Assembly (NCBI GenBank): GCA_964591475.1
Contig: CAZQAX010000003.1
Coordinates: 1 to 35,282, forward strand
DNA length: 35,282 nucleotides
Reading direction: 5' to 3'
From: an uncultured Candidatus Saccharibacteria bacterium
GTDB lineage: Bacteria; Patescibacteriota; Minisyncoccia; Phycocordibacterales; UBA9973
Within the stretch, counting starts at the first letter, position 1. Every line of letters begins with the position of its first letter. Below are positions 1 to 8,692 of the stretch, piece after piece. The notes beneath the pieces were generated by a model that was given only the letters and a program-made list of their open reading frames with translations, had not been told where the DNA came from and made no database searches. The translations under genes and the position numbers were made by a program.

Positions 1-23
1 ATCTGATCTCTCAATTTTTACTA

Positions 24-52
24 AAGCCACTATTTAATTAGTGGCTTTTTTA
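24..52 (+). terminator. intrinsic terminator of the upstream (off-window) gene
   Basis: AGCCACTA/TAGTGGCT stem plus T-run. Confidence 0.75.
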
Positions 53-97
53 TTTCCTTAAAATACTCAGTCGAACTTCATCCCAAGTTCGGAGCAC
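47..97 (+). repeat. cassette boundary repeat, copy 1 (inverted repeat 71-92)
   Basis: TTTTTATTTCCTTAAAATACTCAGTCGAACTTCATCCCAAGTTCGGAGC immediately after terminator 24-52. Confidence 0.85.
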
Positions 98-126
98 TTG
101 ACAATTTAATAAATATACCTTATTAT
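98..126 (+). promoter_or_regulatory. class-A cassette promoter TTGACA-17-TATTAT
   Basis: Hexamers read directly at 98-103 and 121-126. Confidence 0.65.
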
Positions 127-152
127 ATAAACAAATAAGGCTCTTTAATATT

Positions 153-209
153 GGTTTTATTTAGGTTACCAAAGCAGGTCAAATTGGCCTTTTGTGGCAA
201 CTTAAATAT
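153..209 (+). promoter_or_regulatory. conserved 57-nt structured leader, copy 1
   Basis: Differs from 1317-1373 at 2 positions. Nested hairpins: outer 163-171/195-203, inner 176-180/186-190. Confidence 0.55.
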
Positions 210-220
210 AACTAAACAAG

Positions 221-547
221 ATGAAAAAGAATTATTTTTGGATGAGTATATCTCATTGGTTGGGTTTACCAATAACAATTACATTAGATAATAAAACAGA
301 GCGTGGGTATCTTTCTACGCCAAAAAATCAATCCGGAAATTTTTATTTGCATAATCGAAAAGATTCAAACCTGCTGTTAACAGGTAAAGCATCTGATGTA
401 ACCAGGGTTTCTCTTGCGCACCCAATACTGCAAGATGCCTGGGCTTTTTGTACAGATCCAGATGCTAGGGAGGTTTCAATCTTTAAACATCCAAGCGGTA
501 GGCCAATGTCTATTCGTGAGGCAAAACAAAAAGGACTAATACCTTAG
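221..547 (+). CDS. hypothetical small protein, cassette 1 (108 aa)
   Basis: ATG ORF from track. Own promoter at 98-126 and conserved leader. T-run follows the stop. No family recognised. Confidence 0.6.
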   Translation: MKKNYFWMSISHWLGLPITITLDNKTERGYLSTPKNQSGNFYLHNRKDSNLLLTGKASDVTRVSLAHPILQDAWAFCTDPDAREVSIFKHPSGRPMSIREAKQKGLIP

Positions 548-560
548 TGTTATAAAAATT

Positions 561-604
561 CCAGTTTACAAAACTAGTACGACGTATGTCTGCTGGTTTT
601 TTTT
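561..604 (+). terminator. weak hairpin plus T8 after cassette 1
   Basis: Only a 4-5 bp long-range stem (CCAG/CTGG). T8 at 597-604. Confidence 0.35.
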
Positions 605-650
605 ATTTCCCTAAAACGCTTATTCGAACTTCATCCCAAGTTCGGAGCCT
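597..650 (+). repeat. cassette boundary repeat, copy 2 (inverted repeat 624-645)
   Basis: Same consensus. TCGAACTT-CATCCC-AAGTTCGG is intact. Confidence 0.85.
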
Positions 651-651
651 C

Positions 652-685
652 AAAAAATAGCCTTATTCTGTAAGGTTATTTTTTA
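652..685 (+). terminator. intrinsic terminator between boundary copy 2 and promoter B1
   Basis: 10-bp stem 656-665/671-680, T-run. Confidence 0.7.
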
Positions 686-724
686 TTACCGTACTTAGAA
701 AATATTGTAAAGTTCGAACCTATT

Positions 725-752
725 TTGACATTTCTTGTGAATAATGTAGTAT
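725..752 (+). promoter_or_regulatory. class-B cassette promoter TTGACA-16-TG-TAGTAT
   Basis: 725-730 and 745-752. Same architecture at 1795, 2325 and 2868. Confidence 0.65.
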
Positions 753-778
753 ATTAGTAAATTAAATTAGTGTAAATT

Positions 779-1132
779 ATGTCAGTAGCACAAGCCCAAG
801 GAATTGTTCGCACCAGATTAGCTGAAGAAAAAAGAAAAGTTATTCTTGCTCAAATGCCTGAAAATATTCAGAACTTATGGAAAGAGTATAGAAGTCTCGG
901 TCACCCATACTATACGAGCAGTATGATTGAAAAGTTTATTATATATGTTGCTGCCCTGTATCTTGGAGTATTGCTTTTACTTAAGGGTAGGAAAATTAAA
1001 ATTAGGGAAATCTACCTTGATTTTTTGCAGCATATTGAAACTTCAAACAACAACATTAAAGAATTCTCTAAAAAGCCCGATATTCAATTGGTGATTAAGG
1101 CTTTTAAGGATAATAATGTTGCCTGGATATAA
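779..1132 (+). CDS. hypothetical small protein with one central TM segment, cassette 2 (117 aa)
   Basis: ATG ORF. Class-B promoter at 725-752, terminator at 1158-1182. Hydrophobic stretch FIIYVAALYLGVLLLL. Confidence 0.6.
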   Translation: MSVAQAQGIVRTRLAEEKRKVILAQMPENIQNLWKEYRSLGHPYYTSSMIEKFIIYVAALYLGVLLLLKGRKIKIREIYLDFLQHIETSNNNIKEFSKKPDIQLVIKAFKDNNVAWI

Positions 1133-1157
1133 AAATATAGATATCCTAAAAATTACT

Positions 1158-1182
1158 AACCCGTCAAATGGCGGGTTTTTTT
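1158..1182 (+). terminator. terminator of cassette 2
   Basis: CCCGTC/GGCGGG stem, T7. Confidence 0.8.
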
Positions 1183-1260
1183 ATTTCTCTAAAATACTCA
1201 ATCGAACTTCATCCCAAATTACCACTTTGCTAAGGCTACATCGGTACACAGTCGGAGAAG
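1176..1260 (+). repeat. cassette boundary repeat, copy 3, right arm displaced by a ~33-nt insertion (about 1218-1250)
   Basis: Left arm and loop are intact at 1202-1215. ..GTCGGAG resumes at 1251. Confidence 0.75.
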
Positions 1261-1262
1261 TA

Positions 1263-1291
1263 TTGACTTTTAAGGTAAAATATGCTATCAT
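1263..1291 (+). promoter_or_regulatory. class-A cassette promoter TTGACT-17-TATCAT
   Basis: 1263-1268 and 1286-1291. Aligns with 98-126. Confidence 0.65.
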
Positions 1292-1316
1292 ATACGCAAT
1301 AAGGTCTTTTAAATAT

Positions 1317-1373
1317 GGTTTTATTTAGGTTGCCAAAGCAGGTCAATTTGGCCTTTTGTGGCAACTTAAATAT
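1317..1373 (+). promoter_or_regulatory. conserved 57-nt structured leader, copy 2
   Basis: Same as 153-209. The outer stem is fully paired here (G at 1332 versus A at 168). Confidence 0.55.
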
Positions 1374-1382
1374 CACTATAAT

Positions 1383-1715
1383 ATGAAAATAGAACCCACT
1401 ATTCCTGTCCTATACACTGTATCCATTGCATCAAGCAAGTTTAGTAAATTATTCTTTGTATCCCGAATTCCTACACCTAATGAAAAAGAACACATATCGG
1501 TAGGTGTTGATTTACCTGAATTAGATTACATAAAGGTTCAATCAGTAAGACAGAATCTGCATAATATCTACAATCGTACGCGGGCAGACAATTATGAAAA
1601 CCGCCCAATCGATGAGGTCTTTGCTGTATTAGTAGAATATAGACCAAATGAAGAAACACGGGAAAGGGTTAAGAAACAGCTAATAGAAAAAGGCTGGAAG
1701 TCGTCCGGTAAGTAA
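1383..1715 (+). CDS. hypothetical small protein, cassette 3 (110 aa)
   Basis: The track ORF starts at TTG 1356. I chose ATG 1383 because it sits at the same position after the conserved leader as ATG 221 in cassette 1. Terminator at 1737-1775. Confidence 0.55.
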   Translation: MKIEPTIPVLYTVSIASSKFSKLFFVSRIPTPNEKEHISVGVDLPELDYIKVQSVRQNLHNIYNRTRADNYENRPIDEVFAVLVEYRPNEETRERVKKQLIEKGWKSSGK

Positions 1716-1736
1716 TCTTTAAATTATAAAACATAT

Positions 1737-1775
1737 AAAGCCCTTCAGAATATTAGTAATCTGAAGGGCTTTTTT
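1737..1775 (+). terminator. terminator of cassette 3
   Basis: 10-bp stem GCCCTTCAGA/TCTGAAGGGC, T5. Confidence 0.85.
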
Positions 1776-1794
1776 ATTTCTCTAAAACTCACCT
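1770..1794 (+). repeat. cassette boundary repeat, truncated copy (no inverted repeat)
   Basis: TTTTTTATTTCTCTAAAACTCACC then runs directly into the -35. Confidence 0.6.
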
Positions 1795-1822
1795 TTGACA
1801 TTTGGTGTAAATAATGTAGTAT
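1795..1822 (+). promoter_or_regulatory. class-B cassette promoter
   Basis: TTGACA 1795-1800, TG-TAGTAT 1815-1822. Confidence 0.65.
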
Positions 1823-1874
1823 TTGAGTAAATTAAATCAGATGATCCGACTGAATAAAACGGTACGTACTATAT

Positions 1875-2267
1875 ATGGAAACAACAATAAAATTTTACAT
1901 CAGTAAACAAAGGGGAAGCAAAGAACTTGGTTTTTATTTTTTTATTAAAACCAGTGCCCAAGAGAGTCGTACTTGCTATCTTTCAAAAAAAGAAAATCTT
2001 GCAAGTGTTATTAAAGATTTGTTTAATTCTTCAGTGAATAAACTTAATCCAGAAATAGATTATTTCAAGTTTAAGACTGTTTATAATATTGAATCATATA
2101 CAACTGGAAACGCAATTTTCGTCGTAGGAGAAGTTTTAAAAAAAAGGGAGCTCTTGTTTTTAAACGATTCGGTAATAGAAGTTAAGCCAATGCTTGAAGA
2201 GGATATAGATCTTTTTAACGAAGCTTTTGAAAGCTTACGCAATGGTAGTTTTGTTAAGACTTTGTAA
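1875..2267 (+). CDS. hypothetical small protein, cassette 4 (130 aa)
   Basis: ATG ORF. Class-B promoter at 1795-1822, hairpin terminator at 2276-2306. Confidence 0.6.
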   Translation: METTIKFYISKQRGSKELGFYFFIKTSAQESRTCYLSKKENLASVIKDLFNSSVNKLNPEIDYFKFKTVYNIESYTTGNAIFVVGEVLKKRELLFLNDSVIEVKPMLEEDIDLFNEAFESLRNGSFVKTL

Positions 2268-2275
2268 ATTTATAT

Positions 2276-2306
2276 AAAGGCTGTTCACAAAAGTTCAGCC
2301 TTTTAT
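2276..2306 (+). terminator. terminator of cassette 4
   Basis: AAAGGCTG/CAGCCTTT stem, interrupted T-tract. Confidence 0.6.
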
Positions 2307-2333
2307 TATTGCGAATTTCTACCTTTGACATTT
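2298..2333 (+). repeat. 36-nt terminator-to-promoter junction, copy 1
   Basis: GCCTTTTATTATTGCGAATTTCTACCTTTGACATTT, identical to 2841-2876. Confidence 0.9.
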
Positions 2334-2352
2334 TGGTTAAATAATGTAGTAT
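2325..2352 (+). promoter_or_regulatory. class-B cassette promoter
   Basis: TTGACA 2325-2330, TG-TAGTAT 2345-2352. Confidence 0.65.
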
Positions 2353-2377
2353 TTACTTGAATTTAAACGTACAAAAG

Positions 2378-2812
2378 ATGGAAAAACAAGAAATAGAATT
2401 TGAAGATTTTAAAGATACTTTAGTAAAGCATCGCACAGCATTGAAGGCAAGAGAAAAAGGATTTTATTGCATAACTCCTCACAGATTCTTAAATGAAAAA
2501 CAAATTGTAGGCGGGTGGATAGGTGGTAATACGCCAGAACCATCAAAAGAACAAATTGAGATTTATTTATCAAACCCAGAAGAATTACTGATTGCTCCAA
2601 CTGCGGGTGTTTTACATCAGTGGTTAAAAAGAATCCATAATATTTCAGTGCATACTGAGCCTGTTTATTCAGGTGTTCCTAAAATAGGCACGATATTTCA
2701 GGCTTATTTATTTTTTGAAAAAACAAAACGTGTAGATTTTACAAATGCCTACGCAGATGAAGCAGAAGCGTTTGAGGCTGGTATCTACGAGGCTCTTCAT
2801 AGGTTACCTTAA
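2378..2812 (+). CDS. hypothetical small protein, cassette 5 (144 aa)
   Basis: The track ORF starts at TTG 2357, which lies at or upstream of the predicted TSS of promoter 2325-2352. First ATG at 2378 preferred. Terminator at 2815-2850. Confidence 0.6.
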   Translation: MEKQEIEFEDFKDTLVKHRTALKAREKGFYCITPHRFLNEKQIVGGWIGGNTPEPSKEQIEIYLSNPEELLIAPTAGVLHQWLKRIHNISVHTEPVYSGVPKIGTIFQAYLFFEKTKRVDFTNAYADEAEAFEAGIYEALHRLP

Positions 2813-2814
2813 TA

Positions 2815-2850
2815 AAGGAGGCTGTTCGTACAAACGTTCGGCCTTTTATT
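2815..2850 (+). terminator. terminator of cassette 5
   Basis: AGGCTGTTCG/CGTTCGGCCT imperfect stem, TTTTATT. Confidence 0.6.
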
Positions 2851-2876
2851 ATTGCGAATTTCTACCTTTGACATTT
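2841..2876 (+). repeat. 36-nt terminator-to-promoter junction, copy 2
   Basis: Identical to 2298-2333. Confidence 0.9.
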
Positions 2877-2895
2877 GGTTTAAATACTGTAGTAT
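2868..2895 (+). promoter_or_regulatory. class-B cassette promoter
   Basis: TTGACA 2868-2873, TG-TAGTAT 2888-2895. Confidence 0.65.
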
Positions 2896-2919
2896 TTGGT
2901 TAAATTAAATGTATAGAAA

Positions 2920-3351
2920 ATGAAACTAGTACCTATTGTTTTAATAAACGGTAAGACCGTTAATCTTCCAACGGAGGTCGAAATCGCTAATTTTAGAAAT
3001 CACCTTGGTGGAGCAAGAGCTTGGTTTTTTGATAATGGTTTAGAAAAAAATATTCCATATGTAATTAAACAGTACAATGTCCGCACAGGATTAGATCACG
3101 AGATTTTACAGGAAAAGTATTTTTTAAAAAAGATTTCTTGTCCTAAAAACTCTATGCTACTTGGGGTGTTGTTTGACAAAGAATACAACCCTAATTTTTT
3201 CTTACTTGAACCAGAGGGTGAAGGCGTAAGTCAAACATTATGTATTGTTTTAGTTAATGAAGAAGAAGAGGTTCCTGACGATTATGCTTATCACTCTACA
3301 TCACTAAAGCCCAATTTCGACACAAAACATTGTGTTTACAAAATTGAGTAA
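2920..3351 (+). CDS. hypothetical small protein, cassette 6 (143 aa)
   Basis: ATG ORF. Class-B promoter at 2868-2895, terminator at 3369-3399. Confidence 0.6.
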   Translation: MKLVPIVLINGKTVNLPTEVEIANFRNHLGGARAWFFDNGLEKNIPYVIKQYNVRTGLDHEILQEKYFLKKISCPKNSMLLGVLFDKEYNPNFFLLEPEGEGVSQTLCIVLVNEEEEVPDDYAYHSTSLKPNFDTKHCVYKIE

Positions 3352-3368
3352 AAAATCAATTACCTTAA

Positions 3369-3399
3369 GGGCTTGTCATTATATGGCAGGCCTTTTTTA
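3369..3399 (+). terminator. terminator of cassette 6
   Basis: 8-bp stem with two G-U pairs, T6. Confidence 0.75.
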
Positions 3400-3445
3400 T
3401 TTGCCTTCCAATATACTCAGTCGAACCTCATCCCAAGTTCGGGGT
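3393..3445 (+). repeat. cassette boundary repeat, copy 5 (inverted repeat 3421-3442, one mismatch)
   Basis: TTTTTTATTTGCCTTCCAATATACTCAGTCGAACCTCATCCCAAGTTCGGGG. Confidence 0.8.
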
Positions 3446-3451
3446 CGTGTA

Positions 3452-3481
3452 TTGACAAGGGGGTGATAATTATGTTATCTT
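3452..3481 (+). promoter_or_regulatory. class-A-like cassette promoter TTGACA-18-TATCTT
   Basis: Aligns with the 98-126 and 1263-1291 promoters and is preceded by the boundary repeat. Confidence 0.5.
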
Positions 3482-3544
3482 TATAAAAGATTTACTTAAC
3501 CTGGTAGCCTGAGGGATTGTCCCAAAACGGCTGAACGAATTTGT

Positions 3545-3762
3545 AAAAAACTTTGTTTTACACAAAGACACATTGGACGCAGGTAAGGTTGTTTTTTATA
3601 GTTTAGACTTTTTACGCAGTTTTTGCCTAAGGAACAAAAAGTGGCCGAGTCGAAAATAGCTAAACGTTTTGTAAGGGAGTCATAGATGTTTTTATTAATG
3701 TTAGCGCTAACGCTAATACTGACACTAAGACTAAAGCCTAATAAAACCAAAAAAACAGTTGG
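3545..3762 (-). ncRNA. speculative antisense RNA opposite the small ORF and its SD
   Basis: Minus-strand TTGACC (3793-3798)-17-TATTTT (3770-3775). Minus-specific hairpin CTTTGT/ACAAAG plus T6 at 3545-3567. All signals are weak. Confidence 0.2.
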
Positions 3763-3787
3763 ATCCATAAAAATAATAAGGCTCTGA
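3686..3787 (+). CDS. candidate 33-aa hydrophobic/basic peptide MFLLMLALTLILTLRLKPNKTKKTVGSIKIIRL (type I toxin-like)
   Basis: Hand-translated; below the track length cutoff. AAGGGAG at 3673-3679 lies 6 nt before the ATG. Hydrophobic N-terminal half and Lys-rich tail. Sits inside a promoter-to-terminator unit with no long + strand ORF. Confidence 0.3.
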   Translation: MFLLMLALTLILTLRLKPNKTKKTVGSIKIIRL

Positions 3788-3807
3788 CAATAGGTCAACC
3801 TCTACGA

Positions 3808-3840
3808 AAAGCCTCGAAACCTTAATCGGGGCTTTTTTTA
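3808..3840 (+). terminator. terminator of cassette 7
   Basis: AGCCTCGA/TCGGGGCT stem, T7. Confidence 0.8.
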
Positions 3841-3860
3841 TTTTCCCTTAAAATATGTAT
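3833..3860 (+). repeat. cassette boundary repeat, truncated terminal copy
   Basis: TTTTTTTATTTTCCCTTAAAATATG after terminator 3808-3840. The array ends here. Confidence 0.55.
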
Positions 3861-3874
3861 TTAATTATATAAAT

Positions 3875-3901
3875 AAAAAGGCAACGTAATGTTGCCTTTT
3901 T
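3875..3901. terminator. bidirectional hairpin (serves the 260-aa minus-strand gene)
   Basis: A5-GGCAAC-loop-GTTGCC-T5. Confidence 0.75.
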
Positions 3902-3907
3902 GATGTC

Positions 3908-4690
3908 TTACTTTACCTTTTTAAAGTATTCATTAATTACTTCAATTTTGGGAAAGTTTAGAATTACGTTGTACCGGTCAGTTTTCTGAGCGTTTTCCCA
4001 AAGAAAATTGGTTAAAATAACTTCCTGCTGGGCTTGATCAGAATCTCTTATAATAAATGATCTACGTAATGTTATTGCCAGGGTGTAACCGTTTAGTTCT
4101 ATTGAAAAATCCTCAATATTCTCATTTGGTCTTTTGCCAGCAAAATCAGTTTGTTTGGTTCGGGTGAAATGTTCCTCAAGTTCGCGGGCTATATTAATCA
4201 AGCCATTTTCTTGATCAAGAGCCTCATTGTCCCATTGTAGGTACGTGAAGTGAAATGAATGATTGAATTCATCGGAATGAATAATCTGAAAATCATTGCT
4301 TAGTTGTTCAATCTCTACAGTTACTCTGTTTCTGAATCCAAATCTTGCATATACATAATTTGGGGTACCAAAACGGGCGTAGTGTTTGTTAACCACCCAC
4401 ATTAGTGGGTAATTTTCTTGACTATGAAGTATGGTCGACAGTTCGTCAGCCAAAGGGTAAGAGTCTTTTAAATACAAGTTAATGTTTTTGCCAGCAATTT
4501 TTTCAGGTGTTGGCAAAAGTTGGGCAATAAAGTGCATTATAATAGAACTATCTGGAAGTTCGCCAAAGATTTTGTAATCAAATTCTTTTGCCGTCCACAT
4601 TGCCGGTGAGAAAATATTATTTTCATCTACCTCAGGGATTAGTATTAGAAAGTCTCCAATACTGATTTTCGCGTAGTTTGTGTTTGTCAT
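3908..4690 (-). CDS. hypothetical protein (260 aa)
   Basis: Long ATG ORF with hairpin 3875-3901 downstream. No family recognised, no SD. Confidence 0.7.
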   Translation of the reverse strand: MTNTNYAKISIGDFLILIPEVDENNIFSPAMWTAKEFDYKIFGELPDSSIIMHFIAQLLPTPEKIAGKNINLYLKDSYPLADELSTILHSQENYPLMWVVNKHYARFGTPNYVYARFGFRNRVTVEIEQLSNDFQIIHSDEFNHSFHFTYLQWDNEALDQENGLINIARELEEHFTRTKQTDFAGKRPNENIEDFSIELNGYTLAITLRRSFIIRDSDQAQQEVILTNFLWENAQKTDRYNVILNFPKIEVINEYFKKVK

Positions 4691-5235: not shown

Positions 5236-5745
5236 TTAATTGACTGTAAATTCTTCGTCTAAAACCTCTAGTGGTTCTTTGTCTTTTGTTTCAAATTTAA
5301 CACTAGCTATCCAGCCATTGACCTGGACTTTTTTAAAAACCAAATCATTTTTAGTTGATTCAATTTTTAAAACCATGCCAATGTTTTGAAGATTTTTTGG
5401 AAAGCAGCTACTTTTGTACCATAGGGCTGTTGACGTGTCTCGGGCGCCATATTCGCTACTGTACCCATAGTCAACTAAACCAATCTTGTCATCTTTGATT
5501 TTTTTTATCCTAACAATTCGGCCAGCGTCTTGCGCAGATATTTCTAGTGGATTTTTAAAAGAAGAAATTTCTCCTCTAATGTTAGAATCAATTCCTGCCA
5601 AGGATCCACAAACAATAACTGAAATCAAAAAAACACCAAAGGCTCCAAAAGAAAAACCATACTGTACAAAACCAGTAATTACGGCTGTTAAAAAGATTAA
5701 TACAATAGCAATAGGGAAATAAAATGTTTCTTTTTCTTTACTCAT
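5236..5745 (-). CDS. hypothetical membrane protein (2 N-terminal TM segments plus a soluble C-terminal domain)
   Basis: ATG ORF with a strong SD AGGAGGGG (plus-strand 5753-5760) 7 nt upstream. Minus-strand terminator at 5207-5232. Confidence 0.7.
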   Translation of the reverse strand: MSKEKETFYFPIAIVLIFLTAVITGFVQYGFSFGAFGVFLISVIVCGSLAGIDSNIRGEISSFKNPLEISAQDAGRIVRIKKIKDDKIGLVDYGYSSEYGARDTSTALWYKSSCFPKNLQNIGMVLKIESTKNDLVFKKVQVNGWIASVKFETKDKEPLEVLDEEFTVN

Positions 5746-5902: not shown

Positions 5903-8692
5903 ATGAACCCAAATTTTATAGATGATGTAAAGGGGGCTGGTACGACAAAACCCTTTGGTTTACGTAACTTTACCTTTAGCAAAAAAGCTGATTTATTTTT
6001 ACATTTTTTAATATGTGCAGTTGTTGTTTTTTTTGGAATTAGGGCTGGTATTTCGAATGCCGCCAATACAGCTATTGAAGACCTTGGAATACAGTTTCAA
6101 CAATTAGGATCAGGTCCAGGGTCAATGTTTTTTGATGCCAATGGAGACCCACACTGGTTTGTGGTTTTTAGTGGTAGAGCTCAATTTATTGATGTGAATT
6201 TAAAAACAGGTGAAAAAAGATATTTCAATATTGGCAAGGGCGGGCTTGGGGGTAGCCCAAAGGCTTTATCTGGGAATAGTCTTTTTGTATTCGTAGGCGA
6301 TTCTTGTTCAGTGTGGCAGTACGACATAACTGCGGGAACCATCAAAGAGCTCAAACAAGCCGGTTCAAATAATGGCTGTGGTAATTCTACGGGAACTCAA
6401 AGTGCGTATACTGCCGCTGATGGTATGGTTTATGCCGGAACAGCACATAGAGGTACTGTATATGAAATTGATCCCGCAACTGGGAATATAAGAGACTTTG
6501 GTATTGTTGACCCACCAGCTGGTAATCCAACATGTAGTGGTTGTGCATCTCGCATGGTTAGTAACATTGTTGTTGACGCTAATTTTATATATACATTAAT
6601 GCGTGACACTAGTACGAATTCTTGGTGGTTAGCCATCTTAAACCGCAGTGACGGTAGCTTGTCAGCTTCTTGTGACAAAGACAGCTTACTACCTAGTGGC
6701 AAAGTTGCTGCATCTGTTGATGGAACCCAAATATGGTACAACTCATACCGTATTGATAATACAAATGGCCAATGTCCAACAACCAAGGGCACCCCTCCAC
6801 CGCTAAGATCTTGGTTTTTCCCTTCAAATGTTTACTCAACTGATGGCGACTCTTATGCTCAAGCCGCTTCGGTTTTTGGAGTTGATATTGATGCTTCAGG
6901 TGTAGAGGTTGACACGAGTAATGGTGGAATTTCAACACTATCATATCGTTACCCCGCTGGTTCTGGAAATTGGACACAGGTAACTCAGTCAATATTAATG
7001 AAAGATGCCCAAATAAAACGCATCAAAGCTAAAGATGATACTAATGCATATTTAATAGGTGGTTCGTATGGACCAAACTCAATATTTAACGGTAGCTCAA
7101 GTACGGTTTTAGGTCGTACACCACAAAGTACTTATGCAGCAACTCCGGTAGGGCAATATCTATATCTTTCTGGATACACAGCTAATACTTATAGATATAA
7201 CACGTCACTACCTTGGACGGTTATGGGGTCATCAACACAAACGTTTTGTAATGTTTCATCGCCATCAAATCCATGTGTAGCTTTCGCAGGAATGGGTAAG
7301 TATCATTATTATACAAAAGTAGCATCAAATGGGAATTTGTATATTGCATCTGATTATAAGCGTGGCAACCGAGGAGGTGGAGATATTGGATGGATAAATC
7401 CAACAAGTGGAGCGACAAGCTATCACGCGCTTACTTGCGATGCGCCAAGTGGATTTGCATTGTTGTCAGACGGCAAAACTATTGCTTATGCGGGTAGTGG
7501 AGAGGCTGGATCATTTGGTTGTACTAATACAGTAGGAAAAGTCTATATATTTGATACTAACACACACACCGTAACAAATTCATTTTCACCAGTAGCAAAC
7601 TCTGATAGCCAGGGTACAATTATTGACACAAATGATGGAGGAATACTGGGAATCGTTAAAGGCTATCCTGCATTTGGTCAGTATACTATGTATAAAGTTG
7701 ATGCAAGCGGCACACATGCGTCATGGTCACCAATGGTTGTAACAGGTACTATATTTGGGTCTACAAACGGAGCAGATCAATTTATGATCAAAGCTCGTGA
7801 CGGTATGATCTACACAACAGGTAATACTAATGAATTAATTAAAATTAATCCGAGTGATGGCACCCGTACTTCGGTTACTACGGCAAGTAGTTATATTACT
7901 GCTATGGAATTTGTAGGAGACGACTTGTATATGGCTGTTGGTTCAAATGAAAGTAGGCTACAAAGAATAAGAGGCTTAAACCCACCTGCTCAACAACTTT
8001 CTACGACAAAAGCGATCACCTCATTTAATTTTGGGACACCTGCTGTTACTGGAACAATAAATGATTCAAATAAAACTATATCTTTAACTGTGCCATTTGG
8101 GACAAACGTTACATCTCTTATACCAACTGTTGTGACTACTGGTACATCAATCAGCCCAAATACAGGTGTCGCTCAAAATTTTACAAATCCTGTGACCTAT
8201 ACCGTAACTGCAGCTGATAGCTCTACTCAAAATTATGTAGTAACGGTTACAATCTCTCCTGACACAAATCCTAATAAAAGCACTGACCCGGTCAAGAAAG
8301 ACCCAGACCCAATACCAAGCAAACAACCAGACCCAGTTAAAACTGAAACTGAAAAAACCAAACCCGTAGAACCGGTCAAAACCGAAACAAAGCCCACCCA
8401 GCCCGAAACAAACAAGAGCACTCCTGAAGAGATAGTTAAAAAGAATCAATTTGTATTTACTAAAAACCTTAAATTTGGCATGAAAGATGAAGGTGTTTAT
8501 GCGTTGCAAGTATACTTAAATAACAACGGCTTCCCTGTGTCAAAATCAGGTGTTGGCTCAAAAGGTAAAGAAAACGCTTATTTCGGTATAAAGACAAGAG
8601 CTGCCCTAAAAAGGTTCCAAAAAACAATAGGATTAACTCCTACAGGTATACTAGGTCCCGTTACACAAAGAATTATTATAAAAAATCCTTAA
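5903..8692 (+). CDS. large cell-surface protein: signal/anchor, G/S/T-rich beta-rich ectodomain, Ig-like beta-sandwich module, Pro/Thr/Lys linker, C-terminal PG_binding_1 domain
   Basis: ATG 5903 lies 9 nt after TGgTACAAT. N-terminal hydrophobic segment ends ..ISNA. Ig-like module motif ITSFNF..GTI...TISLTVPFGTNVTSL...PVTYTVTAADSST. Linker PDPIPSKQPDPVKTETEKTKPVEPVKTETKP. C-terminus G..V..LQ.YL...G.....G..T..A.K.FQ...GL..TG resembles a peptidoglycan-binding domain. Confidence 0.85.
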   Translation: MNPNFIDDVKGAGTTKPFGLRNFTFSKKADLFLHFLICAVVVFFGIRAGISNAANTAIEDLGIQFQQLGSGPGSMFFDANGDPHWFVVFSGRAQFIDVNLKTGEKRYFNIGKGGLGGSPKALSGNSLFVFVGDSCSVWQYDITAGTIKELKQAGSNNGCGNSTGTQSAYTAADGMVYAGTAHRGTVYEIDPATGNIRDFGIVDPPAGNPTCSGCASRMVSNIVVDANFIYTLMRDTSTNSWWLAILNRSDGSLSASCDKDSLLPSGKVAASVDGTQIWYNSYRIDNTNGQCPTTKGTPPPLRSWFFPSNVYSTDGDSYAQAASVFGVDIDASGVEVDTSNGGISTLSYRYPAGSGNWTQVTQSILMKDAQIKRIKAKDDTNAYLIGGSYGPNSIFNGSSSTVLGRTPQSTYAATPVGQYLYLSGYTANTYRYNTSLPWTVMGSSTQTFCNVSSPSNPCVAFAGMGKYHYYTKVASNGNLYIASDYKRGNRGGGDIGWINPTSGATSYHALTCDAPSGFALLSDGKTIAYAGSGEAGSFGCTNTVGKVYIFDTNTHTVTNSFSPVANSDSQGTIIDTNDGGILGIVKGYPAFGQYTMYKVDASGTHASWSPMVVTGTIFGSTNGADQFMIKARDGMIYTTGNTNELIKINPSDGTRTSVTTASSYITAMEFVGDDLYMAVGSNESRLQRIRGLNPPAQQLSTTKAITSFNFGTPAVTGTINDSNKTISLTVPFGTNVTSLIPTVVTTGTSISPNTGVAQNFTNPVTYTVTAADSSTQNYVVTVTISPDTNPNKSTDPVKKDPDPIPSKQPDPVKTETEKTKPVEPVKTETKPTQPETNKSTPEEIVKKNQFVFTKNLKFGMKDEGVYALQVYLNNNGFPVSKSGVGSKGKENAYFGIKTRAALKRFQKTIGLTPTGILGPVTQRIIIKNP

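What the first reader, a model, noticed from the sequence alone, without database searches (positions are those of the whole stretch)
3452..3840. Cassette 7 has no long ORF: long-leader transcript with an SD-led 33-aa hydrophobic peptide and opposing antisense signals
The last cassette has the same boundary, promoter and terminator frame as the others. Its ~350-nt body has no + strand ORF of 60 aa or more. It does contain one of only two good Shine-Dalgarno sites in the window, AAGGGAG at 3673-3679. The SD lies 6 nt before an ATG that opens a 33-codon ORF (3686-3787). That ORF encodes MFLLMLALTLILTLRLKPNKTKKTVGSIKIIRL, one hydrophobic helix plus a Lys-rich tail. This is the composition typical of type I toxins and other small membrane peptides. 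About 200 nt of leader with local hairpins precede it. On the opposite strand there is a weak promoter (TTGACC-17-TATTTT, 3770-3798). There is also a hairpin at 3545-3567 that has a T6 tract only in the minus orientation. Together these would give a ~215-nt antisense RNA covering the SD and most of the ORF. The annotated minus-strand ORF 3496-3798 would then be an artefact. All signals are individually weak, and a pure ncRNA is an alternative.
Basis: partly seen in the sequence, partly recalled or inferred. Interest (0 to 1): 0.65.

Follow-up and report, generated by a model that had tools for sequence, protein, structure and literature searches.

The report
Conserved ORF-less RNA gene cassette
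The seventh "cassette" most likely encodes a roughly 350-nt non-coding RNA with its own promoter and terminator.

Summary
The toxin/antisense interpretation fails once related copies are compared.

The body (about 3476-3840) recurs at about 85-100% identity in about 20 metagenome runs from freshwater, wastewater, sludge and sediment. The protein-coding cargo of the other six cassettes is mostly absent from the four runs tested.

- **The 33-codon ORF is not kept.** In the commonest variant ATG3686 reads GTA and a 1-nt insertion after 3716 shifts the frame.
- **The 100-codon minus-strand ORF is not kept.** It has three in-frame stops in that variant.
- **The antisense -35 box exists only in the window.**
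- **The "hydrophobic helix" is a repeat effect.** It comes from a CUAANN hexamer repeat.
- **The SD argument is weak.** 30 of 31 genes here have no SD.

The conserved features are the + strand promoter boxes (with divergent spacers), the terminator, and several helices. Four base pairs change on both sides while staying paired, and many G·U pairs work only on the + strand.

There is no Rfam, tRNA or tmRNA match. The best reading is a new, lineage-restricted structured ncRNA carried as cargo in a modular cassette array. Its function is unknown, and no RNA-seq run was available.

The parts
3396..3445 (+). Boundary module: a post-terminator sequence plus the hairpin CGAACCT-CATCCCA-AGTTCG. It is shared with the other cassettes.
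   Evidence: Repeat family D2, four copies in 1-4000. The exact 22-mer occurs in 5 CPR MAG contigs and 8 metagenome contigs.
3452..3481 (+). Sigma-70-type promoter, TTGACA-18-TATCTT with a TG extension. The inferred transcription start is near 3488.
   Evidence: The -35 and -10 boxes are kept with different spacer sequences in variants B1 (TTGACA-17-TATCTT) and B2 (TTGACA-17-TATTCT). Variant E shows a TATGAT box (loose ends).
3499..3584 (+). 5' domain with predicted multi-branch helices (3499-3503/3580-3584, 3505-3509/3529-3533, 3513-3516/3520-3523, 3536-3544/3568-3576, 3551-3556/3562-3567). This is the most conserved block.
   Evidence: A versus B: 0 differences in 74 columns against 44 in 244 downstream (Fisher p=4e-6). 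Identical or nearly so in X6, X7, X8, X12, X16, X22, X25. Variant E has 5 substitutions and 1 insertion. There is no covariation, so this fold is only a prediction.
3599..3662 (+). Domain 2: a long hairpin with the apical loop CC-UAA-GG.
   Evidence: Basal helix 3599-3603/3658-3662: four substitutions (U3603C; AGC3658-60GAU) keep all three affected pairs, and one is a double change, U-A to C-G.
3666..3747 (+). Domain 3: a long imperfect hairpin (apex GUUAG-NN-CUAAC, 3700-3711). It contains the SD-like AAGGGAG, both candidate AUGs and the hexamer tract. It is nearly perfect in variant B and weaker in the window.
   Evidence: RNAalifold on A and B. There is one double compensatory pair (about 3684/3726) and five changes between G·U and Watson-Crick pairs. 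Six positions are mismatched in A, and the alignment of 3681-3694 is ambiguous.
3707..3744 (+). Period-6 tract (CUAACG CUAAUA CUGACA CUAAGA CUAAAG CCUAAU).
   Evidence: Autocorrelation is 0.56 at lag 6 against about 0.3 at other lags. CTAA occurs 7 times against 1.9-2.7 expected. This tract explains the Leu-X-Leu-X 'peptide'.
3779..3801 (+). Penultimate hairpin (3779-3781/3799-3801 and 3785-3788/3794-3797).
   Evidence: Two independent double compensatory changes: 3780/3800 is G-C in A and E but A-U in B and D. 3787/3795 is A-U in A, D and E but G-C in B.
3806..3843 (+). Intrinsic terminator (12-bp stem, 8-nt loop, T7). It is a module shared with other cassettes.
   Evidence: In variant D2 three changes (3806, 3813, 3814) all keep or improve pairing. 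The same hairpin follows a 165-aa ORF in L018.
3686..3787 (+). Judged spurious.
   Evidence: The start codon and frame are lost in variant B. D1 has a deletion and an insertion plus a Leu-to-Pro change.
3496..3798 (-). The 100-codon minus-strand ORF. Judged spurious.
   Evidence: Three in-frame stops in variant B. No homologues among 5.8 billion proteins. Not called as a gene on the identical NCBI contig.
3770..3798 (-). Antisense promoter-like match. Not conserved.
   Evidence: 9/12 match. The -35 box reads ATGACC or ATGGCC in B1, B2, D1, D2 and E.

Best explanation
Positions 3452-3843 are a stand-alone gene for a roughly 350-nt structured non-coding RNA, transcribed from the + strand. The transcript would start near 3488 from a near-consensus extended -10 promoter and end at an intrinsic terminator (3806-3843).

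The RNA would fold into a highly conserved 5' domain, two long hairpin domains, a small penultimate hairpin and the terminator. It is carried as the cargo of one unit in a modular array (boundary hairpin, promoter, cargo, terminator). Such arrays occur in Patescibacteria/CPR genomes, and their cargoes differ from genome to genome.

The 33-aa and 100-aa ORFs are by-products of sequence periodicity and chance.

What is shown: the sequence is conserved, the ORFs are not, the transcription signals are kept, and some helices are kept through compensatory change.

What is inferred: that the RNA is made, and what it does. My best guess for function (about 0.3) is a trans-acting regulatory RNA. It would use its invariant 5' domain as a sequence-specific interaction surface for an RNA or protein partner encoded elsewhere in the genome.
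For: **Conservation of the cargo**
- The body recurs in about 20 runs from about 12 studies.
- In four of those runs (X6, X11, X15, X22) only the regulatory modules match upstream. The six protein cargoes are absent at 80% identity or more, apart from part of cassette 4 in X22 and the 3' end of cassette 6 in X15.

**No reading frame is kept**
- Neither ORF survives in the variants.

**Transcription signals are kept**
- Promoter boxes are kept while the spacers diverge, and the terminator is kept through G·U to G-C changes.

**Structure is kept**
- Four pairs change on both sides while staying paired, against 0 in all six slid-partner controls. 97% of cells are paired.
- At least 8 G·U pairs would be A·C mismatches on the minus strand.

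**The 5' block is under extra constraint**
- A versus B: 0 of 74 columns differ, against 44 of 244 downstream.

**Other**
- An SD is not a translation signal in this genome.
- No gene is called in this region on the identical NCBI contig.
Against: - No RNA-seq run holds the region, so transcription is not shown.
- Only 4-5 distinct variants exist, all within about 15% divergence and partly reconstructed from contig difference tables.
- The covariation is suggestive, not statistically robust. The tested structure was also derived from the same sequences.
- The 5' domain fold has no covariation, and variant E weakens three of its helices.
- The mosaic pattern (D1 is A-like in the 5' half and B-like in the 3' half) means recombination could inflate the apparent invariance of the 5' block.
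- No target or partner was found.
- The 101-codon open frame on the minus strand of the window copy is rarer than chance alone predicts (0.9% of shuffles).
Confidence: 0.62

Rival explanations
1. The transcript is an mRNA with a long leader for an SD-led small hydrophobic membrane peptide (type I toxin-like), and a cis-antisense RNA from the minus strand represses it.
For: In the window copy AAGGGAG lies 6 nt before ATG3686, followed by a 33-codon Leu-rich, Lys-tailed ORF. A 9/12 antisense promoter match exists. AAGGGAG is also kept in variant B.
Against: - In variant B the ATG reads GTA and a +1 insertion follows 3716.
- D1 has an indel pair and a Leu-to-Pro change inside the 'helix'.
- The antisense -35 box is lost in all five other variants.
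- The proposed antisense terminator is a weak AU-rich stem with two G-C pairs and is not listed by the scan.
- The genome does not use SDs.
- The hydrophobic pattern comes from a hexamer repeat.
Confidence: 0.04
2. A dual-function RNA. It is a structured RNA that also encodes a very short, fast-evolving micro-peptide starting at the conserved AUG3698 (ML[A/V]LTL...).
For: AUG3698 and the first six codons are kept in A, B and D1. Four of the five A-to-D1 substitutions in 3698-3733 are synonymous in this frame (hand translation of the sequences).
Against: - The products would be 29, 14 and 23 aa with unrelated C-termini.
- AUG3698 lies in the apical helix of domain 3, 18 nt from the SD-like motif.
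- The conserved codons coincide with the conserved hairpin apex, so RNA constraint explains them.
Confidence: 0.07
3. A decayed cassette. It is a former protein-coding cargo or long leader that lost its ORF and persists only because it sits between conserved, recombining promoter and terminator modules. There would be no RNA function.
For: - All known copies are within about 15% divergence, so the time for decay has been short.
- The modules clearly recombine: the same terminator follows another cargo in L018, and one body carries different promoters in B1 and B2.
- A strain whose neighbour gene is 90% identical at the protein level has another cargo at this position.
Against: - This is the only cargo found in all four runs tested (X6, X11, X15, X22), while the protein cargoes are mostly absent from them.
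- Changes are compensatory or switch between G·U and Watson-Crick pairs, and do not break helices.
- The 5' block is invariant between A and B while the rest differs by about 18%.
- No six-frame remnant of an ORF is shared among the variants.
Confidence: 0.13
4. The minus-strand 100-aa ORF (3496-3798) is a real small-protein gene.
For: The frame is open for 101 codons, which only 0.9% of shuffles reach. 12 of 23 A-to-B substitutions fall on its third codon positions (my count).
Against: - Three in-frame stops and net frameshifts in variant B.
- No homologue in 5.8 billion proteins, and no Pfam, PHROG or PADLOC hit.
- The only promoter-like site overlaps its start and is not conserved.
- It is not called on the NCBI contig.
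- G·U pairs favour the + strand.
Confidence: 0.03
5. A DNA-level element such as a recombination, replication or protein-binding site, and not an RNA.
For: It lies in an array that shuffles by recombination. Domain 3 is a long near-palindrome in variant B.
Against: - G·U-containing helices and one-sided G·U to G-C or A-U changes make sense only for RNA of the + strand.
- The element is framed exactly by a promoter and a terminator, both conserved.
Confidence: 0.04

Closest known systems
Stand-alone bacterial regulatory RNAs of 200-500 nt with their own promoter and Rho-independent terminator (for example RNAIII, CsrB/RsmZ, CrcZ, SgrS)
   Same: It is an independent transcription unit of several hundred nucleotides with several hairpin domains, a terminal intrinsic terminator and no conserved long ORF. 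A short ORF in one copy recalls dual-function RNAs.
   Different: - No sequence or covariance-model similarity to any Rfam family.
- No enrichment of GGA motifs as in CsrB-type sponges: 5 observed, 4.1 expected.
- A-rich AAnAAnAA motifs are only mildly enriched: 3 observed, 0.56 expected.
- No partner or target is known, and the organism is a CPR bacterium with a reduced genome.
Type I toxin-antitoxin loci (for example hok/sok, tisB/istR, fst)
   Same: The window copy has a small hydrophobic ORF with a basic tail, a long structured leader and an antisense promoter-like match.
   Different: The start codon, the reading frame and the antisense promoter are all lost in related copies.
Non-coding or ORF-less cassettes in integron arrays and moron-like units (promoter, gene, terminator) in phages
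   Same: It is one unit among tandem, same-strand units with conserved boundaries and interchangeable cargo. Some cargo is RNA only.
   Different: - Every unit here has its own strong promoter and terminator, which integron cassettes usually lack.
- The boundary hairpin is 21 nt and shows no attC R/L boxes (my reading of the sequence).
- No integrase lies in the window.
- The boundary repeat is absent from IMG/VR viral contigs, and the RNA body finds no match in phage or plasmid records.
tmRNA
   Same: Similar length. One frame reads like a tag ending GCC UAA UAA (ANANTDTKTKA**).
   Different: ARAGORN finds no tmRNA and Rfam shows no tmRNA match even at E up to 10. I could see no tRNA-like acceptor or T-arm and no 3' CCA. 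The tag frame is shifted in variant B.

Membership tests
Type I toxin-antitoxin | A small hydrophobic toxin ORF whose start codon and frame are conserved among homologues | tested here: not met
   In variant B the ATG reads GTA and a +1 insertion follows 3716. D1 has an indel pair and a Leu-to-Pro change.
Type I toxin-antitoxin | A conserved antisense RNA gene (promoter and terminator) overlapping the toxin mRNA | tested here: not met
   The minus-strand -35 box TTGACC occurs only in the window and is ATGACC or ATGGCC in five variants. The proposed terminator is not detected by the scan.
Type I toxin-antitoxin | The peptide is toxic or depolarises the membrane | not testable with these tools
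   This needs an expression experiment.
Any Rfam 15 family (including RNase P, 6S, SRP, tmRNA, riboswitches, OLE/GOLLD/ROOL/raiA) | A covariance-model score at or above the family's gathering threshold | tested here: not met
   0 hits at gathering thresholds in the whole window. At E up to 10 on 3300-3950 only terminator-like weak hits appear, the best being 26.8 bits against a cut-off of 56.
tmRNA | A tRNA-like domain with an alanine acceptor stem, a T-arm and a tag ORF | tested here: not met
   ARAGORN finds none. The tag-like frame is not kept in variant B.
Protein-coding gene (minus strand, 100 aa) | An ORF intact in homologues, with homologous proteins elsewhere | tested here: not met
   Stops in variant B. 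No protein homologues. No family hits.
Stand-alone structured ncRNA/sRNA gene | Its own promoter and intrinsic terminator, conserved in homologues | tested here: met
   The boxes are kept with divergent spacers, and the terminator is kept with pair-preserving changes.
Stand-alone structured ncRNA/sRNA gene | Secondary structure supported by covariation | tested here: inconclusive
   Four double-compensatory pairs and about 13 one-sided pair-preserving changes, against 0 double changes in the slid controls. There are only 6 partly reconstructed sequences, and the structure was derived from them.
Stand-alone structured ncRNA/sRNA gene | The transcript is detected with defined 5' and 3' ends | not testable with these tools
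   No RNA run holds the region.
Protein-sequestering RNA (CsrB/RsmZ type) | Multiple GGA motifs in hairpin loops, above expectation | tested here: not met
   GGA: 5 observed against 4.1 expected (P=0.40). AGGA: 1 against 1.5.
Integron gene cassette | An attC recombination site and an integron integrase | tested here: inconclusive
   The ORFs of 100 aa or more that were scanned with Pfam gave no integrase hit. Not all ORFs were scanned. The boundary is a 7-bp/7-nt hairpin, much shorter than an attC, and no attC model was run.

The most novel reading that the evidence does not exclude
This RNA would be the founding member of a new family of structured RNAs. It would travel as RNA-only cargo in a previously undescribed, integrase-independent cassette system of CPR/Patescibacteria. 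In that system, conserved boundary hairpins, promoter/leader modules and terminators act as recombination handles that shuffle small orphan genes between genomes. Its near-invariant 70-nt 5' domain would mark a specific molecular partner, for example a host or phage factor relevant to the epibiotic lifestyle.
Probability: 0.2. Interest if true: 0.65.

Novelty: new member of a known kind. Interest (0 to 1): 0.42.

Why it matters
CPR/Patescibacteria have very small genomes, few known regulators and almost no described regulatory RNAs.

A promoter-to-terminator RNA gene found in several environments would be a concrete candidate for studying riboregulation in this group. This holds all the more because neighbouring protein cargoes are swapped between genomes.

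It would also help to understand the modular arrays of small orphan genes in which it sits.

In practical terms, annotation pipelines should not call the 100-aa antisense ORF. An SD-like motif is also not evidence of translation in genomes that do not use SDs.

Tried and rejected
**Searches for known RNA families**
- Rfam at gathering thresholds on the whole window and at E up to 10 on 3300-3950 gave nothing meaningful.
- ARAGORN found no tRNA or tmRNA.

**Searches for more copies of the RNA**
- An invariant 22-mer found 0 hits in GTDB genomes, JGI metagenomes and IMG/VR. A second, degenerate pattern also found none in IMG/VR. The 22-mer spans the site of variant E's 1-nt insertion, so E-like copies would have been missed.
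- blastn against phage and plasmid records gave no match.
- 13 loci were fetched through the boundary repeat. None holds the RNA by blastn or by a covariance model of the 5' domain.

**Protein searches**
- The 100-aa ORF has no homologues.
- A concatenate of the six cassette proteins gave nothing. The word filter was saturated, so this result is uninformative.
- The 260-aa neighbour has one homologue. Its contig (L018) carries a different cargo at this position.
- Pfam, PHROGs and PADLOC gave no function for any cassette protein. The only hit was phrog_12005, of unknown function, for cassette 5.

**Expression and targets**
- No RNA-seq run holds the region.
- RNA-RNA duplex scans against all translation-start regions in the window and against the cassette leaders were no better than shuffled controls.

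**Ideas considered from reading the sequence and dropped**
- Hammerhead-like, TPP-like and tmRNA-like resemblances did not hold up.
- MFE z-scores are about -2 on both strands and do not discriminate between them.

Full report
**Context**

The window is cellular DNA with about 35% G+C. It encodes TypA/BipA, YceG, a short AlaRS, a PIF1-type helicase and a PilM-like protein. Near-identical DNA occurs in freshwater metagenomes and in NCBI metagenome assembly GCA_013565595.1.

Positions 1-3843 hold seven same-strand units. Each is framed by three repeated modules:
- a post-terminator sequence plus the hairpin TCGAACYTCATCCCAAGTTCGG;
- one of a few promoter types;
- an intrinsic terminator.

The exact boundary 22-mer occurs in five GTDB species genomes, all CPR MAGs (Paceibacterota or labelled 'Saccharibacteria'). 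It also occurs in eight metagenome contigs and in no IMG/VR contig. The organism is therefore very probably a Patescibacteria/CPR bacterium.

**Check of the observation**

- the promoter TTGACA-18-TATCTT with a TG extension (3452-3481);
- the terminator 3806-3837 plus a T-run;
- no + strand ORF of 60 aa or more;
- AAGGGAG at 3673-3679, 6 nt before ATG3686, and the 33-codon ORF;
- the 9/12 antisense promoter match at 3798-3770;
- the 100-codon minus-strand ORF.

The hairpin at 3551-3567 is a weak AU-rich stem, and the terminator scan does not list it.

**Related copies**

No copy was found in GTDB genomes, JGI metagenomes, IMG/VR, phage records or plasmid records. The k-mer index of public runs found the region in about 20 runs from about 12 studies of freshwater, wastewater, activated sludge and sediment.

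Laying the assembled contigs of those runs on the window gave these variants:
- **A:** the window. X5 carries an identical copy of 3542-3831.
- **B:** X9, X10, X11, X13, X15 and X21. This body occurs behind two different promoter sequences.
- **D1 (X6) and D2 (X22).**
- **E (X26):** a more distant, partial copy.

I reconstructed these from the difference tables and aligned them.

The flanks differ between copies:
- B1 and B2 have different spacers between the same -35 and -10 boxes.
- X25 has a 104-nt segment in place of the 48-nt boundary-to-RNA spacer, and a different upstream terminator.
- In X26 the terminator is followed by another cassette promoter (TTGACATTTTATAG).

I also laid four of these runs (X6, X11, X15, X22) on 1-3450. 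Only the regulatory modules match, namely the boundaries, the 85-nt leader of cassettes 1 and 3, and the class-B promoters. The six protein-coding cargoes are absent at 80% identity or more, except part of cassette 4 in X22 and the 3' end of cassette 6 in X15. The ORF-less body is therefore the only cargo found in all four of these runs.

**Coding potential**

In variant B, ATG3686 reads GTA and a 1-nt insertion after 3716 shifts the frame. The 33-aa ORF therefore does not exist there. D1 has a deletion at 3760, an insertion after 3768 and a Leu-to-Pro change.

From the internal AUG3698 the products would be 29 aa (A), 14 aa (B) and 23 aa (D1), with unrelated C-termini.

The minus-strand 100-codon frame has three in-frame stops in B. 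It has no homologue among 5.8 billion proteins and no family hit. It is not called as a gene on the identical NCBI contig.

The open frame in the window copy is unusual: 18 of 2000 shuffles reach it. The tract 3707-3744 is a period-6 repeat (CUAANN; autocorrelation 0.56 at lag 6; CTAA 7 times against about 2-2.7 expected). This repeat probably helps to keep that frame open. It also makes the + frame read Leu-X-Leu-X, which is the 'hydrophobic helix'.

The antisense -35 box is ATGACC or ATGGCC in all five other variants.

30 of 31 genes in the window have no SD-like motif, and many have a -10 box directly before the start codon. An SD-like heptamer is therefore not a translation signal in this genome.

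**Evidence for an RNA**

- **Transcription signals.** The + strand promoter boxes are kept while the spacers diverge. The terminator is kept, and in D2 three changes (3806, 3813, 3814) all preserve or improve pairing.
- **Consensus structure.** RNAalifold on the variants gives five parts: a 5' multi-branch domain (3499-3584), a long hairpin (3599-3662), a second long imperfect hairpin (3666-3747), a small penultimate hairpin (3779-3801) and the terminator.
- **Pair counts on the 6-row alignment.** 97% of cells are paired. Four pairs change on both sides while staying paired (3603/3658, about 3684/3726, 3780/3800, 3787/3795). The last two have different phylogenetic patterns. About 13 pairs change on one side between G·U and Watson-Crick. 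None of the six slid-partner controls has any double change.
- **Strand.** At least eight G·U pairs would be A·C mismatches on the minus strand, so the + strand is the functional one.
- **5' block.** It is identical between A and B (0 of 74 columns), against 44 of 244 columns downstream (p=4e-6). It is nearly invariant in seven other runs.

Caveats:
- There are few, closely related and partly reconstructed sequences.
- The structure was derived from the same sequences that were used to test it.
- The 5' fold has no covariation and is weakened in variant E.
- The D1 mosaic shows that recombination occurs, which could inflate the apparent invariance of the 5' block.

**What it is not**

There is no Rfam family match and no tRNA or tmRNA. 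GGA motifs are not enriched. No complementarity to start regions or cassette leaders exceeds shuffled controls.

A strain whose 260-aa neighbour protein is 90% identical carries a different cargo at this position. That cargo is a 165-aa ORF followed by the same terminator hairpin. The RNA unit is therefore exchangeable cargo at this position and not a fixed part of the locus.

**Conclusion**

The most likely reading is a new, lineage-restricted, structured non-coding RNA gene carried as cargo in a modular CPR cassette array.

Function is unknown. I favour a trans-acting regulatory RNA whose invariant 5' domain contacts a specific partner, at about 0.3. A non-functional decayed cassette remains the main rival, at about 0.13.

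No RNA-seq run was available. The decisive evidence would be expression data and a larger alignment.

Noticed in passing
window 134-214 and 1298-1378: An 85-nt 5' leader is 89% identical between cassettes 1 and 3 and contains the hairpin GGUUACCAAAG...CUUUUGUGGCAAC. In other metagenomes it occurs at high depth joined to different downstream ORFs (for example in X6 and X15). It has no Rfam hit and may be a shared cis-regulatory or translation-enhancing leader module.
   Followed up: partly
window 46-95, 599-648, 1177-1226, 3396-3445; L001-L013: The boundary module (TTTTTATTTCCnTAAAAYR... plus the hairpin CGAACYT-CATCCCA-AGTTCG) is repeated several times per locus in CPR MAGs and metagenome contigs. 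It is absent from IMG/VR. It often lies next to tRNA genes and other small RNA genes.
   Followed up: partly
whole window (31 gene starts): Only 1 of 31 genes (5236-5745, minus strand) has an SD-like motif. Many genes have a TATAAT-like box 7-12 nt before the start codon. This suggests mostly leaderless or SD-independent translation in this organism.
   Followed up: partly
L008 about 2070-2200 and about 3130-3260; L005 about 1650-1790; L011 about 6280-6420: A roughly 125-nt GC-rich structured sequence has paired 5' and 3' ends. Its 3' end (GGGUCGAUAUCCCUACCCUGGGAGC) resembles the T-arm and acceptor of the nearby tRNA-Asn and, loosely, the boundary hairpin. It has no Rfam or ARAGORN hit. It could be a tRNA-like RNA or the source of the boundary repeat.
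   Followed up: partly
L018 (Logan contig, 1371 nt), read on the minus strand: The homologue of the 260-aa neighbour gene (90% aa identity) is preceded by a different cassette: a promoter, a 165-aa ORF and the same terminator hairpin as the RNA (AAAAAGCTCCGAAACCTTAATCGGGGCTTTTTT). This is direct evidence that cargo is exchanged between shared modules.
   Followed up: yes
L001 about 6400-6540: Another apparently ORF-less mini-unit in a Paceibacterota array. It has a boundary hairpin and a promoter-like TTGATA...TGTGATATAAT, then about 60 nt ending in a terminator hairpin.
   Followed up: no
window 649-690: A short hairpin plus T-run (AAAAAATAGCCTTATTCTGTAAGGTTATTTTTT) lies directly after the boundary of cassette 2. 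The same module recurs in L008 and L018. It may be a second terminator or a tiny transcript.
   Followed up: no
window 2378-2812: The cassette 5 protein (144 aa) matches phrog_12005 (E=6e-10), a phage protein family of unknown function. It is the only cassette cargo with any family hit.
   Followed up: no
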